Shown here in pieces: positions 1,853 to 7,800 of a stretch of DNA of 64,000 nucleotides. A program made the translations under genes and the position numbers. Position 1 is the stretch's first letter, and each line of letters begins with the position of its first letter. The DNA comes from Tubiluchus corallicola (lineage: Eukaryota > Animalia > Priapulida). Under the pieces are notes generated by a model. It saw only the letters and a program-made list of their open reading frames with translations, was not told the DNA's origin and ran no database searches. The stretch is taken from contig JAQGDQ010000175.1 of assembly GCA_030141605.1 (NCBI GenBank), forward strand, positions 310,001 through 374,000, read 5' to 3'.

Positions 1853-4800
1853 CTGCAAATAGTAAATTCTGTGTAATCAAAACAAGCATAATAGAAATGT
1901 ATTTAAAGTAGGGTAGCTCAGTGGCAGCTTCCCACCCCCGAGGTCGCGAGTTCAAACACCGGCCTAGTCATACCAAAGACTTAAAGAATGGCATCGCTGG
2001 TTCTTTGACCAAGCACGCGGGTTTATCGGAGTAACGTGCAGGTAATAATAATCGGGACCATCTTGGAAATCACTATTGAGTGTGTTATCACTGGACTGTG
2101 TCCTAAACGAAATTATTACTACTATTAATATAAAACATGTTATAAGACTTTCAAGTCATTAAAATTAATTTATTTTCCAACAGAAAGAAAATGACAACTT
2201 GTGACTGAGTTTGTGATTCATGTTAGTTTTGGTAGCATCAAACTTGGCTCATGATTTTACTGCAGTAATTGTTGTAATTTACATCTCTGCTCTATAGTCA
2301 GCTATATAATTTTATGTGTAAATGTATTACGTGTTCTGTGAACTTTTAGTTGGAATAAAATTTTACTTTCTTACTTACTCAGCATGTAGAAAATGCATAA
2401 AACTTCAAAAGAGGCTCAAAAAATTCTCGATTACAGAGTAAGAGCTTAACGAGTTTACAAAAGAAACCAAATTACAACTTGTGACTCAGTTTGCGAGTCA
2501 TGCGAATTTTGGCTGCATTGTCACGAATCTGGTTTCCGTTTTTTTTAAGTTTAAGTTAATCAGGGGCTCGTATTTAAAATTAGTGGGGGTGCTGCAAAAT
2601 TAAAGTTTCTTTAGCCATTGTTTTAATACTGTGTAAAACGAAACAAACATATGTAATTTCAATGTTGTAAATGTAATTTTAAACAAGCAAACTAAATTTA
2701 AACATAACCTTGATAAACTCCTGAACAAAGAATATTATTTTCTTATGAATAGCCTGTTCATACTGTTGTGTTTCTTTCTCTCGGACGGCTCGTAGAGAAA
2801 ACACGAAAACTCCTTGTCGAATTGAACAGGTTTATTGTGTGAGAAATCTACAACACACAAGTATGAAGGAATGCGAAATGTATACAGTAAATGTGATAAT
2901 CTAGAAACGTGAAAGTGAGAAAGCGTATCTGAGAATCTGAGAATACGAGGATACAAGAGAATGTGAGAGAATAAACTTGAGCGGCCAGCTCCGCCTTATA
3001 TATCAGTGCACATGGACAACACCAGAACAATCTAGAAACTACTACATGCATCACGTATAGAAAGTTCTCGAATCTTCTACAAAGTAAAAAGATTGAATAT
3101 GGCCCACATAAGAAGCTTGAGCTCATGTTGCGCTTCTCACTTTTAACACTAGATGGAGCCAGCACAGAAACAGTGCTTCTCCACCAATCAAAATTAAGCA
3201 AAGAAAAACTTTAATCGCGAGTCACCAGAAATGGCAGCAGTGAAGAAATGCCTGGAAAAAAGTGCAGGATTTCAACAACGTGAGTTGATCCAGAAATACA
3301 GTGGAGAGGATAATTGAAGACTTGTCTGCCAACTTGAAACTTCAGCTGAGAGACAAAGCTTCTGTTTTGATTTTTTCTCCATAGCAAGTGATGAGAGTAC
3401 AGATGCCACAGACACCGCACAGCTGCTAATTTTTTACAGGGACTAGATGATAATTTTTTCTGTACTAGTACATAAAGTATTAGAATAAGAGCAACATGTG
3501 CAGGAGTGTATGGTCGTATGTTGCCTTATCATTTGGCATTCTTCTGTTAAATCTTAATGTAATACGAATACTGTCCATGTGTGCGAAATAAAATGATTCT
3601 TATTTTCTTATTCTTATTCTAAAAAAATAATCTTATTCTTATTCTAAAACTATTCTCATTCTAAAAATATTCTTATTCTTATTCTAAAACTATTCTCATT
3701 CTAAAAATATTCTTATTCTTATTCTAAAACTATTCTCATTCTAAAAATATTCTTATTCTTATTCTAAAACTACTCTTATTCTTATTCTAAAACTATTCTT
3801 ATTCTTATTCTAAAACTATTCTTATTCTAAAACTATTCTTATTCTAAAGCATATTCTTATTCTAAAACTATTCTTATTCTAAAAATATTCTTATTCTTGT
3901 ACAACAGACCTGAATGTTTGGATGGCCATTACGTGTCTCTTTCACCAGCGCCTCTAGACGTACAGAAAATGTGGCCATTGACTTAACATAAGCAACAGAA
4001 TCGCCAGTACTGTTGCTGGAAATCTGGAGCTGCTGCTGCTGCTGGGGTTGTTGTTCTTGTGCTGCTGCTGGTGTTTTGCTGTTGCCACCAGTGTCGCCGG
4101 GATCCACTTGATTCTGGTAAAACTGGAAATAGGAAAAGTAATGTAATGCGATGATGAATTGTAGCTTTAATGTCACGCTTGTTTTGATATGTTCGACAGC
4201 ACAGTACAAACGGATTAACACGTAATTATAAATGAAGTAAGATAATATTTTTTCAGTATTTCTAGTACACTGCACAGTGCACACAAGTACAGTACATATA
4301 GTACACTTATAGTACAATTGGAGCACAAATACTAAATGCATTGAGCAAAGTGTTCTAATTTGCTATCGAGTGCTTTGACTTCTGATTTTCTTGAAACAGC
4401 CACATTACTAGATAATTTTGCACGTCCATTAATTAGCGAACTTAATTATTTAATTAATGCTATAAACGCAAGCAGAGATTCAGGTTTTTAGGAGTTGAAA
4501 GATTTACCTTTGGCAGGAAAATTAGCGCCTCGGTTACAAATGTGCCAAACATGAGAAATCCAGACGTAACCGCGTACTTTTCGTTTGGTTGATGATTAAT
4601 GATGAGATTCATAGCCGCACAGACAATAGCAATAATGACAGCATTATAGATACAAGCTCCAATCATCTGAGAATCATTGAATTCCTTGTATTTTACCTAC
4701 AGAAAAGGTAAATTTAAAGTTTTGACATCTGAGAATCATTGAATTCCTTGTATTTTACCTACAGAAAAGGTAGATTTAAAGTCTTGACATCTGAGAATTG

Positions 4801-7800
4801 TTGAATTCCTTGTATTTTACCTACAGAAAAGGTAGATTTAAAGTCTTGACATCTGAGAATCGTTGAATTCCTTGTATTTTACCTAGAAAAAAGGTAGATT
4901 TAAAGTTTTGACATCTGATAATCATTGAATTCCTTGTATTTTACCTACAGAAAAGGAAGATTTAAAGTTTTGACATCTGAGAATCGTTGAATTCCTTGTA
5001 TTTTACCTACAGAAAAGATAGATTTAAAGTCCTGGCATCTAACAATCAGTGAATTCCTTGTATTTTACTTACAGAAAAGGAAGATTTAAAGTCTTGACAT
5101 CTGAGAATCGTTGAATTCCTTGTATTTTACCTACAGAAAAGGTAGATTTAAAGTCCTGGCATCTAAGAATCAGTGAATTCCTTGTATTTTATCTACAGAA
5201 AAGGTAGATTTAAAGTCTTGACATCTGAGAATCATTGAATTCCTTGTATTTCACCTACAGAAAAGGAGGATTCAAAGTCCTGGCATCTGAGAATCATTGA
5301 ATTCCTTGTATTTTACCTACAGAAAAGGTAGATTTAAAGTCTTGACATCTGAGAATCGTTGAAGTCCTTGTATTTTACCTACAGAAAAGATAGATTTAAA
5401 GTCCTGGCATCTGAGAATCATTTAATTCCTTGTATTTTACCTACAGAAAAGGTAGATTTAAAGTCTTGACATCTGAGAATCATTGAATTCCTTGTATTTT
5501 ACCTACAGAAAAGGTAGATTTAAAGTTTTGACATCTGAGAATTGTTGAACTCCTTGTATTTTACCTACAGAAAAGGTAGATTTAAAGTCTTGACATCTGA
5601 GAATCATTGAATTCTTTGTATTTTACCTACAAAAAAGGTAGATTTGAAATTTTTAAAATCTTGACATCTGGGAATCGGTAAATGTTATCATGATTTTCGT
5701 GCATAAAACGGATATACAAATGAGAGGTCTAGTAATCCAGTGTCTAATAATCTAGTTATGTTTGTTTATAAAAAATAAGAAGTAAACAATTTGAATAATT
5801 ATTTGGTTTTCGTTTTTTATGCTGATCATCCAGAGCACAATCTCCCAACCGATTACTCGAATGCTGATCATCCAGAGCACAGTCTCCCAACCGATTACTC
5901 GAATGCTGATCATCCAGAGCACAGTTTCCCAAACGATTACTCGAATGCTGATCATCCAACACACAATCTCACAATCGATTACTCAAATTCTGATCAGCCT
6001 GAGCACAGTCTCCTAAACGAGTACTTTAATGCTGATCATCCAGAGCACAGTCTCCCAACCGATTACTCGAATGCTGATCATCCAGAGCATCGTCTCCCAA
6101 CCGATTACTCGAATGCTGATCATTCAACACACAATCTCACAATCGATTACTCGAATTCTGATCAGCCTGAGCACAGTATCCCAACCGATTACTCGAATGC
6201 TGATCGTCCAGAGCACGGTCTCCCAACTGATTATTCAAATGCTGATCATCCAACACACAATCTCACAATCGATTACTCGAATTCGGATCAGCCAGAGTAC
6301 AGTCTCCCAACCGATTACTGAATGCTGATCATCCAACACACAATCTCACAATCGATTATTCGAAGTCTGATCATCCAGAGCACAATTTCACAATCAATCG
6401 GTCAAAAGTCCATCTCAAAAGTGACAAGTCGAATACCAATCACTGTAAATCATATAAACATACTAGAAACACATATTGCTGAATGCTCCACCACGTACTA
6501 GGATATTATCATCACAAAAATTAATATGAAAACTTGTTGTAGAAACCTATCAAAAAACGTGAACAAAATGGAAAATAACTAACTTGTCTTGTCTCCCAAG
6601 CCAAAAAAGCTCCGAAAAGGAGCAGCAATCCATGGACAACATAAAAAATGCCACTGAATTCGTTGATTTTGTCTGATTCACATTCTGTGCTCTGTCCCTG
6701 AAGTATAATGTCTTTGTCTTCAGGTGATATCTGAAAAAAAAACGTAATTTTCTGAAAGAAAATAGTTCCTAAATGATTCTAGTGTCTGTATTCATAAGAC
6801 TGAACGTAGTAACTGGCTGAAGGTGTGAACTTAGCTTTACTCAGTTTCATACATTGACAGATTGTCAAGCCTTATTGCTACACAGCAAAAGATTTAAACT
6901 GCTGATCTAGTTTAAAGGAAATCAACATTATGAGAAAACACAGTCTCGTAAACATTACCTCCCCATGTCTTTACCTCCAAGTGGAGTGAAATCGTTAGTG
7001 TAAATGGAGCTTACCTACTGAAAATTAACTAAAAGTGTTAGAAAGCTGACAAAAACAGCCCCTAGATTTCAAGAAGCCGATAGATGGAGCAGAAAAGGAG
7101 AGGTTCTTTCAATGCAGGTGGTTGATGAATGGAATAAATTATCAGGAAAAATAATCAATGCCGCTACCCCTTCCATGAGTCCTGATTATATCGATATTGG
7201 CAGCACAACCAAGAAAAGTTTGTCAATCCTAGACTGTCTCAATGACAGCAAGATGTTTTGCGACACTGTCCATGATCGTGGAGTGCCGCTGTTTCTTTTA
7301 AGGCACAATTATGGAATCCAAAGCAGATTGGAGAGGTTTATAAGCTATTTATCAACTTAACCTCCATCCTTCGGTGGTAACGGTAACCGTAAGAATTTTT
7401 GCTACAGCCTACAATGCCACAAGCTGCTAGTCATGAGAAAAAAATATTGCATTATTTACGTACGGTTTGTGTGAGATTATACATGGTAATATACAGCGGA
7501 TCAGCCAACTCCCATGTCACTAACACCACAATGTTGAGAAGCACAAAGCTTCCAACTAGCAGCATCAGCGCTCGGTCTTTCACAATTCTACGTCGTAGTT
7601 TCTTGTTCATGAAGATGTAATAAACCCGCCATGTTTTAAAGAACAGAGCTCCAAAGGTTAGTGAGAGACCCACGCAGAGAATATAGTTCCTAATCTACAA
7701 ATAAAATTAATTAAATAAAATTTAATTTTAGCAGTTTACGTCAGATATTTGTAACAATCAATTCAATTAGTATCAATTATTCATATTAAATTATTTATTA

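What the first reader, a model, noticed from the sequence alone, without database searches (positions are those of the whole stretch)
4665..5671. Fifteen extra copies of a real 3' splice site; each 62-bp unit is a complete GT...AG mini-intron (candidate recursive-splicing ladder)
Seen: the array unit is 30 nt of intron end plus the first 32 nt of exon 13. On the gene strand each unit reads GTAAAATACAAGG...CTTTTCTGTAG, so units join as TAG|GTAAAA. Three genuine donors in this gene are GTAAAT. Stopping at any upstream copy gives VKYKEFNDSQMxxL-TAA, a premature stop before TM6. A few copies are variant (AG lost at ~5068, GT lost at ~5192). Known: AG|GT ratchet points allow recursive splicing, and duplication of AGGT-containing sequence is a proposed route to intron gain. 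Inference: the array may be tolerated because splicing to a decoy regenerates a donor, removing units stepwise as zero-exon mini-introns. Otherwise exon definition must select the last of 16 near-identical acceptors, and copy number could tune poison-acceptor use and NMD.
Basis: partly seen in the sequence, partly recalled or inferred. Interest (0 to 1): 0.78.

Follow-up and report, generated by a model that had tools for sequence, protein, structure and literature searches.

The report
Splice-acceptor "mirage" in GABA-B-like gene
The end of an intron and the start of the next exon of an intact GABA-B-like receptor gene are repeated 16 times in a row, a kind of repeat already described in lancelets as a "mirage", and the cell likely splices straight to the last, real copy rather than cutting the repeats out one by one.

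Summary
Sixteen acceptor junctions sit exactly 62 bases apart before exon 13 of an intact 824-codon GABA-B-like gene, and all 15 decoys lead to a stop. Contigs of two samples carry the tandem joint, so it is not an assembly artefact. The structure is a known "mirage" (a minisatellite spanning an intron-exon border; lancelet Adh3, globins, troponin C; human CBS 844ins68), reported not to disturb splicing. This scan has noted many on other genomes.

The ladder reading is poorly supported. Splicing exon 12 to a decoy regenerates CAA|GTAAAA, not TAG|GTAAAA; it lacks both -1G and +5G, unlike all 14 real donors. The same junction forms at the real exon. AG|GT is no more conserved than the rest of the unit (2 of 4 vs 23 of 58 columns vary). 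A second mirage, at exon 4, has AG|GC. A diverged sample shows the exon without expansion.

Most likely: a young, near-neutral repeat seeded by a 12-base microhomology and bypassed by direct choice of the exon-adjacent acceptor. No RNA was available, so the route is inferred; nested removal inside the array is not excluded. New member of a known kind; interest low.

The parts
4664..5645 (-). 62-bp minisatellite ('mirage'), 16 acceptor junctions; unit = 30 bases of intron 12 end + 32 bases of exon 13 start
   Evidence: tandem joints in contigs of runs X1 and X4
4508..4696 (-). Real exon 13 (189 bases, phase 0), last two transmembrane helices of the 7TM domain; its acceptor is the last copy of the array
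   Evidence: open frame; Pfam 7tm_3 positions 192-251, E 1.8e-07; GABA-B receptor chains in PDB, best E 1.1e-07
4758..5626 (-). 15 decoy exon starts (junctions every 62 bases); AG lost before 5068, GT lost at 5192; every one reads into a stop
   Evidence: exon part of decoys carries 11 non-synonymous and 9 synonymous codon differences from the real exon, shared changes counted per copy
5627..5676 (-). Diverged 5' flank of the first copy, holding a 12-base microhomology (11 of 12 alike, 5665-5676) to exon 13 bases 4664-4675; likely seed of the duplication
   Evidence: first copy is the most diverged, 7 differences from consensus
6584..6730 (-). Exon 12 (147 bases); ends in CAA, donor CAA|GTTAGT; supplies the exon side of any regenerated donor
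   Evidence: Pfam 7tm_3
29894..30235 (-). Second, independent mirage in the same gene: 61-bp unit, 6 acceptor junctions (30219 ... 29914) of exon 4, junction CAG|GCGAG
   Evidence: go-back-61 joints in X1 and X4
1709..43326 (-). Host gene: 15 coding exons, 824 residues, 14 GT-AG introns of 312-9,729 bases; class C GPCR, GABA-B receptor-like

Best explanation
The array is a 'mirage' minisatellite, 16 tandem copies of the intron 12/exon 13 border, that likely arose by slippage or unequal exchange at a 12-base microhomology and is likely tolerated because the spliceosome joins exon 12 directly to the last copy, the only one followed by the full exon and its donor. Shown: the anatomy, the stops after every decoy, the intact frame through the last copy, the microhomology, presence in two samples, no expansion in a diverged sample, and no extra conservation of AG|GT. 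Inferred: (1) origin at the microhomology, then unit turnover by unequal exchange; (2) choice of the last acceptor by cross-exon definition with the donor at 4507; (3) occasional use of the nearest decoys gives stop-containing RNAs that NMD would clear. The GT that makes each unit look like a mini-intron is the first two bases of the exon's first codon, copied along with the unit.
For: Same anatomy as lancelet BflGb6 (3' end of intron + 5' part of exon), where RT-PCR suggested normal splicing although many repeats keep AG/GT signals (PMC3087553, passages); the same is stated for Adh and troponin C (PMC3902484, passages). In human CBS 844ins68 the distal copy of a 68-bp intron/exon duplication is strongly preferred (PMC2630376, passage). 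Introns here are long (312-9,729 bases) and internal exons short (66-325), and 13 of 15 decoys would give exons longer than any in the gene. AG|GT columns vary as often as the others: 2 of 4 vs 23 of 58, Fisher p = 1. A second mirage with AG|GC sits at exon 4 of the same intact gene. The gene is dense in minisatellites, so one junction-spanning array is expected by chance at P = 0.27. In run X5 a contig joins exon 13 to an intron end resembling the first copy's flank, with no pile-up (summed depth 8.2 on the unit vs 8.6 beside it; X1: 700 vs 37).
Against: No RNA was obtained, so neither expression nor the splice route is shown. The two nearest decoys give exons of 251 and 313 bases, within the gene's range, so exon size alone does not exclude them. 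The decoy acceptors are as pyrimidine-rich as the real one (12-13 of 17 vs 12), and nothing tested here explains why they would be ignored. TAG|GTAAAA is a fair donor by U1 pairing (-6.7 kcal/mol; only 33 of 1,476 intronic GT sites match it), and the exon 4 junction CAG|GCGAGT pairs well too (-8.9). Two of 16 arrays on acceptors is a little above chance (P = 0.04 for acceptors, 0.13 for either junction; post hoc, hand-picked array list). The conservation test has little power. The X5 contig has depth 4.8, is 93% alike, ends 34 bases past the aligned part, and could be a paralogue.
Confidence: 0.72

Rival explanations
1. Nested (inside-out) removal: before exon 12 is joined, TAG|GTAAAA donors within the array pair with downstream AGs and cut out 62n-base pieces, each cut restoring an acceptor; the intron is then finished from exon 12. 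The product equals direct splicing.
For: 13 of 15 units are GT...AG. TAG|GTAAAA has -1G like the three GTAAAT donors, U1 pairing -6.7 kcal/mol, inside the range of real donors. The exon 4 mirage has a good GC-type donor at 3 of its 6 junctions. One-step and two-step routes give indistinguishable mRNA (PMC8184009 section 9). An earlier unchecked note (e1-7261289) reports piecewise removal of tandem mini-introns in a fungus.
Against: No selection on GT or AG. The shortest intron of this gene is 312 bases, so short-intron recognition is not shown here. The same donor sits at the start of the real exon 13, where using it would delete 189 coding bases. In human introns under 1,000 bases conventional lariats outnumber recursive ones (PMC10156609, passage).
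Confidence: 0.12
2. Forward recursive ladder: exon 12 splices to a decoy, the junction regenerates a donor, and units are ratcheted off as zero-length exons.
For: AG|GT at 14 of 16 junctions. A matrix built from the gene's own 14 donors scores the regenerated site 4.9 bits, inside the leave-one-out range 1.3-10.0, and two real donors pair with U1 about as weakly or more weakly (-3.1 and -1.7 vs -3.0). Weak regenerated sites can be used when the exon junction complex is lost (PMC8184009, abstract and section 9). Recursive lariats occur over a range of intron sizes (PMC10156609, passages).
Against: The regenerated donor CAA|GTAAAA lacks both -1G and +5G (0 of 14 real donors do); 353 of 1,476 intronic GT sites pair with U1 as well or better. 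In the ratchet model the regenerated donor generally is the stronger one and must beat the next donor downstream (PMC8605326, Introduction and Discussion; exceptions are noted there); here it is weaker by U1 pairing (-3.0 vs -6.7), which would favour including a 62-base stop-bearing unit. Ratchet points are ultraconserved and lie in long introns; this array is in a 1.9-kb intron, unconserved at AG|GT, and not expanded in X5. The identical junction forms at the real exon, where re-splicing would delete the last two helices.
Confidence: 0.05
3. Regulatory poison acceptors: decoy use is frequent and copy number sets how much receptor mRNA is lost to NMD.
For: All 15 decoys give a stop with two junctions still downstream; 14 keep AG; two of 14 acceptors of one gene carry such arrays.
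Against: No conservation of the decoy AG; reported mirages give no aberrant mRNA (PMC3087553, PMC3902484, passages), although those tests may not have blocked NMD; no expansion in X5.
Confidence: 0.06
4. The array does damage splicing, and the gene (one of several paralogues) is a weakened or dying copy.
For: A paralogous exon 13 about 90% alike exists in X1 and X5, so loss could be buffered.
Against: The 824-codon frame has no stop or frameshift and all 14 introns are GT-AG; the exon part of the real copy equals the array consensus while decoys drift.
Confidence: 0.04
5. Assembly artefact.
For: Tandem arrays can be mis-assembled; copy number was not checked with spanning reads.
Against: Units differ from each other by 5.4 of 62 bases on average; contigs of X1 carry a joint with the letters of the variant unit at 5254; X4, another sample and study, has a contig with the 62-base go-back.
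Confidence: 0.01

Closest known systems
Lancelet 'mirage' minisatellites: globin BflGb6 and BflGb9, Adh3, troponin C, PGBD5 (PMC3087553 and PMC3902484, passages read; Canestro et al. 2002 not readable here, known through those two)
   Same: Tandem unit spans an intron-exon border and duplicates the splice site; BflGb6 is also intron 3' end + exon 5' part; many but not all units keep AG/GT; unit length within the reported 10-160 bases; the boundary copy is the most diverged; several can occur in one gene.
   Different: 16 copies against 3-6 for BflGb6. The host is a GABA-B-like receptor gene; the host animal was not identified by my calls (earlier unchecked notes on this genome say likely a priapulid, which would be outside chordates). 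Normal splicing and allele-length variation were shown for lancelets but not here.
Human CBS 844ins68 (PMC2630376, passage)
   Same: A 68-bp duplication of an intron/exon junction creates two nearby sites; the distal one is strongly preferred and the mRNA is normal.
   Different: Two copies only, a single polymorphic insertion, not an expanded minisatellite.
Human F7 intron 7 37-bp VNTR (PMC1557585, abstract)
   Same: Minisatellite spanning an exon-intron border; identical pseudo-sites are functional yet silent; the exon-adjacent site is chosen.
   Different: Donor side, not acceptor side; the explanation given there is 5'-to-3' scanning, which for an acceptor array would not by itself pick the last copy.
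Recursive splicing at ratchet points / RS-exons (PMC8605326, Introduction and Discussion; PMC8184009, abstract and section 9)
   Same: Abutting AG|GT; a frame-breaking cryptic exon of about 50-60 bases bounded by the next donor.
   Different: Ratchet points are ultraconserved, lie mostly in long introns and generally have the stronger donor; none of the three holds here, and they are not tandem copies of the real acceptor.
Intron gain by tandem duplication of an AGGT-containing segment (Rogers model as cited in PMC3087553; potato case PMC4974935, search listing only)
   Same: Duplicated AG|GT gives a GT...AG segment between copies.
   Different: Here the AG|GT is an existing acceptor, so no new intron position is made; the copies only lengthen intron 12.

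Membership tests
Mirage minisatellite | Head-to-tail minisatellite with a unit of tens of bases | tested here: met
   Period 62, 15.8 copies, 91% matches
Mirage minisatellite | Unit spans an intron-exon border of the host gene and duplicates the splice site | tested here: met
   30 intron + 32 exon bases; 16 near-copies of the exon 13 acceptor junction
Mirage minisatellite | Host gene intact through the exon-adjacent copy | tested here: met
   824 codons, only the terminal stop, 14 GT-AG introns
Mirage minisatellite | Normal mRNA, no aberrant splice products | not testable with these tools
   No run on record as RNA holds the stretch; the one possible RNA run laid nothing
Mirage minisatellite | Length instability between alleles or samples | tested here: inconclusive
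   Tandem joint in X1 and X4, no pile-up in X5; contigs give no copy number and the X5 contig may be a paralogue
Recursive-splicing ratchet point | Abutting acceptor and donor, AG|GT | tested here: met
   14 of 16 junctions
Recursive-splicing ratchet point | Regenerated donor at least as strong as the downstream cryptic-exon donor | tested here: not met
   U1 pairing -3.0 vs -6.7 kcal/mol; lacks -1G and +5G; equal (4.9 vs 4.9) by a 14-site matrix, so the two crude scores do not fully agree
Recursive-splicing ratchet point | AG|GT conserved above its surroundings | tested here: not met
   2 of 4 core columns vary vs 23 of 58 others, p = 1; low power; within-array test only
Recursive-splicing ratchet point | Typically within a long intron | tested here: not met
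   Intron 12 is 1,887 bases, about half of it the array; not absolute, shorter cases are reported
Recursive-splicing ratchet point | Splicing intermediates: upstream exon-ratchet joints, recursive lariats, saw-tooth coverage | not testable with these tools
   No RNA reads available
Class C GPCR, GABA-B receptor-like (host gene) | N-terminal ANF_receptor (Venus flytrap) domain followed by 7tm_3 | tested here: met
   Single exons: ANF_receptor in 3 and 7tm_3 in 5 of 9 exons scanned, one with no hit; all 15 PDB hits of exon 13 are GABA-B subunits
Class C GPCR, GABA-B receptor-like (host gene) | Orthology to GABA-B R1, R2 or R3 | not tested
   No tree was built; the one homologue search returned nothing

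The most novel reading that the evidence does not exclude
Because the duplicated acceptor happens to be AG|GT (and AG|GC at exon 4), these mirages are removed piecewise: array-internal donors cut out whole 62-base units and restore an acceptor each time. Stepwise splicing would then arise instantly from a tandem duplication, without long-term selection, and would explain why such arrays can grow without harm. Copy-specific variants would let each cut be read from lariats.
Probability: 0.15. Interest if true: 0.65.

Novelty: new member of a known kind. Interest (0 to 1): 0.17.

Why it matters
As it most likely stands it is one more mirage: useful as a warning for gene annotation and as a sign that the phenomenon is not special to lancelets. 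How a spliceosome picks the last of 16 nearly identical acceptors is a fair open question; I found no mechanistic test for mirages in the searches, which cover open-access text only. This gene offers an internal comparison, one AG|GT and one AG|GC array with copy-specific variants. If units were cut out piecewise, it would show stepwise splicing arising from one duplication and would support the tandem-duplication route to new introns. Larger arrays with RNA data, noted elsewhere by this scan, are better test beds than this one.

Tried and rejected
No whole genome is held for this window, so no genome-wide count of AG|GT versus other mirages was possible. No RNA holder listed; X6, RNA by guess only, laid 0 contigs on both stretches and X5 laid 0 on exon 4: these blanks are no evidence. 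X4 has no cover on 4534-4641 and no pile-up on the unit (22 vs 83), X1 none on most of exon 4; contig filters make this uninformative. The laid stretches hold one unit each, so copy number in other samples stays open. Homologue search with exon 6 against longer proteins: 126 candidates, none at E 0.001 or better. The protein atlas gave eukaryotic ANF_receptor clusters and no usable taxon. The 53-bp array before exon 7 first looked like a third mirage (an open frame runs through it); rejected, because phase places the acceptor at 21223, 22 bases beyond the array, and that junction has no near-copy. A first gene model with two wrong borders was corrected. The idea that a private C-to-T change at 4711 marks the real acceptor was weakened: an X4 decoy unit is identical over 4670-4725 (record 14). 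U1 duplex energy and the 14-site matrix are crude (the real exon 12 donor scores -1.7); no MaxEnt-type score was available. Canestro et al. 2002 and Tsai et al. 1996 could not be read. PMC13196383 (passages) held nothing on repeats as recursive sites. Supplements were not read; file 4 of PMC3087553 (BflGb6 alignment) may bear on AG/GT retention in known mirages.
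Full report
Observation. The array is real in the sequence. Tandem Repeats Finder gives 4664-5645, period 62, 15.8 copies, 91% matches, no indels. On the minus strand there are 16 junctions, 5626 to 4696, each exactly 62 bases from the next; the unit is 30 bases of intron end and 32 bases of exon start. 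The AG is lost before 5068 and the GT at 5192. So 14 of 15 decoys keep AG, 14 of 16 junctions are AG|GT, and 13 of 15 units between junctions are GT...AG. Every decoy reads into a stop, 13 after 14 residues and 2 after 9. Three of 14 donors are GTAAAT.

Host gene. Peptide anchors and splice signals give 15 coding exons between 43326 and 1709, an open frame of 824 residues and 14 GT-AG introns of 312 to 9,729 bases. Of 9 exons scanned singly, 3 match ANF_receptor, 5 match 7tm_3 and 1 has no hit; all 15 PDB hits of exon 13 are GABA-B receptor subunits. Exon 13 covers 7tm_3 positions 192-251 of 251, so a stop at a decoy would remove the last two helices and the tail. The subtype was not determined. 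My calls did not identify the animal; earlier unchecked notes on this genome call it a likely priapulid.

Not an artefact. Six runs were listed, none on record as RNA. Four were laid on 3940-4726, which holds one unit. X1, possibly the source sample, piles up on the unit (summed contig depth 700 vs 37 beside it; not a copy number) and shows a joint with the letters of the variant unit at 5254. X4, another sample and study, has a 175-base contig that fits the unit twice with a 62-base step back, but shows no pile-up and has a hole in exon 13, so its copy number is unknown. X5, a diverged sample with the same species label, has a contig that runs from the unique part of exon 13 through the acceptor into an intron end resembling the flank of the first copy rather than an internal unit, with no pile-up (8.2 vs 8.6). 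That contig has depth 4.8, 6 differences in 88 letters and ends 34 bases further on, so it suggests but does not prove an unexpanded orthologue. A second X5 contig and an X1 contig, about 90% alike to exon 13, mark a paralogue; in X5 its acceptor is preceded by unrelated intron sequence.

Origin. Just upstream of the first copy, 5665-5676 matches exon 13 bases 4664-4675 at 11 of 12 letters, exactly where the exon part of the unit ends. A slip between the two would duplicate the acceptor; later unequal exchange would amplify it (inference). The first copy is the most diverged (7 differences), and shared variants recur in non-adjacent units, as described for mirage turnover (PMC3087553, passage). 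The gene is rich in such repeats: of the 69 rows I kept 25 non-redundant arrays of period 14 or more, 16 of them inside the gene, covering 10,765 of 41,630 bases; microsatellites were dropped. Placing one unit of each at random gives 0.31 arrays on an acceptor, P(at least 1) = 0.27 and P(at least 2) = 0.04, or 0.13 for either kind of junction.

A second mirage. Of 28 splice junctions, 2 have near-copies: the exon 13 acceptor (16) and the exon 4 acceptor (6). The exon 4 array (29894-30235, 61-base unit) has the junction CAG|GCGAG; all 5 of its decoys reach a stop. X1 and X4 both show the 61-base step back. A GT is therefore not needed for such an array to persist in this gene. This cuts less cleanly than it seems, since CAG|GCGAGT resembles a GC-type donor (consensus recalled) and pairs well with U1.

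Testing the ladder. That junction exists only before splicing. Once exon 12 is joined to a copy, the site is CAA|GTAAAA. It lacks both -1G and +5G, which none of the 14 real donors does. Its U1 duplex energy is -3.0 kcal/mol, against -6.7 for TAG|GTAAAA and a median of -8.1 for real donors; 353 of 1,476 intronic GT sites outside the arrays do as well. Against my reading, two real donors score -3.1 and -1.7, and a matrix from the gene's own donors gives both forms 4.9 bits, inside the range of real sites. In flies and mammals a ratchet point generally has a stronger donor than the cryptic exon behind it, and weakening it leads to inclusion of the frame-breaking exon (PMC8605326, Introduction and Discussion). 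Here the next donor, 62 bases on, is the stronger by U1 pairing. The same CAA|GTAAAA forms at the real exon, where re-splicing would delete 189 coding bases; the exon junction complex suppresses such regenerated sites (PMC8184009, abstract and section 9) and would not obviously spare decoys (inference). Exons starting GT are ordinary: 2 of 14 here, and the exon 6-7 junction regenerates a better site with no array. Within the array, 2 of the 4 AG|GT columns vary against 23 of the other 58 (p = 1; low power), so neither keeping nor losing the signals is visibly selected.

Most likely mechanism. Long introns and short exons point to exon definition (established principle, applied by inference). 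Only the last copy is followed by the rest of exon 13 and lies 189 bases from the donor; decoys would give exons of 251 to 1,119 bases, 13 of them longer than the gene's longest internal exon of 325. Leak to the nearest decoys would give stop-bearing RNAs with two junctions downstream, likely cleared by NMD. Direct choice (0.72) cannot be told from nested removal (0.12) or a forward ladder (0.05) by mature mRNA, since all give the same product (compare PMC8184009 section 9). None was tested on RNA here.

What is known. Tandem repeats spanning an intron-exon border were named mirages in lancelet Adh3. Globin BflGb6 has this same layout; RT-PCR suggested regular splicing although many repeats keep AG/GT; and intron gain from mirages was already proposed (PMC3087553, passages). 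PMC3902484 (passages) adds troponin C and PGBD5. Human CBS 844ins68 uses the distal of two duplicated junction copies (PMC2630376, passage), and the F7 VNTR silences identical donor copies (PMC1557585, abstract). I reached this reading, before consulting earlier notes. Those notes list at least 8 acceptor or junction mirages on other genomes, several with transcripts entering at the last copy and one with the ladder idea set aside; they are unchecked, and none is listed for this genome. Searches pairing recursive splicing with tandem repeats and VNTRs (1 paper, not relevant) or mirage with amphioxus and minisatellite (2 papers) found no test of piecewise removal in mirages; only open-access text was searched.

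Verdict. Observation confirmed; interpretation partly supported. It meets the three structural features of a mirage, with the RNA feature untestable here, and fails three tested features of a ratchet point. New member of a known kind, interest 0.17. The boldest reading not excluded is piecewise removal of units (0.15; interest 0.65 if true).

Noticed in passing
window 29894-30235 (-): Second mirage: six copies of the exon 4 acceptor, 61-base unit, junction CAG|GCGAG resembling a GC-type donor; present in runs X1 and X4.
   Followed up: yes
window 21245-22389 and 22672-22869 (-): 53-base array in two blocks ending 22 bases upstream of the exon 7 acceptor; 25 units carry a pyrimidine-AG motif that could act as a decoy, but the unit does not copy the real junction.
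   Followed up: partly
window 38407-41851 (-), intron 1: LINE-like retroelement: 597-residue frame at 39123-40913 with RVT_1 (E 1.3e-29) and an endonuclease match, flanked by open frames of 332 and 271 residues in other frames.
   Followed up: partly
runs X1 (record 7) and X5 (record 18), laid on 4504-4698: A paralogous exon 13 about 90% alike; in X5 its acceptor is preceded by unrelated intron sequence. The receptor belongs to a recently expanded set; no second copy lies in this window.
   Followed up: partly
window 4711: Only the real acceptor has T at position -15 in this assembly, giving a branch-point-like TTTAC; an X4 decoy unit has the same letter, so it is probably not the discriminator.
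   Followed up: partly
window 3605-3898: AATAAG-rich repeat begins 12 bases after the exon 14 donor.
   Followed up: no
window 14640-14873: Degenerate telomere-like (TTAGGG) tract inside intron 8.
   Followed up: no
window 43329: An acceptor-like AG|GT lies three bases before the start codon, implying an untranslated first exon further upstream; not located.
   Followed up: no
whole window: Very high minisatellite load: 69 Tandem Repeats Finder rows; 16 arrays make up about a quarter of the gene, including another 62-base array of 50.6 copies at 17520-20662 that touches no splice site.
   Followed up: partly
window 48897-49163: Two-copy 103-base low-complexity repeat with faint likeness (25 bases, 88%) to the glutamine/serine-rich exon 14; probably chance.
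   Followed up: partly
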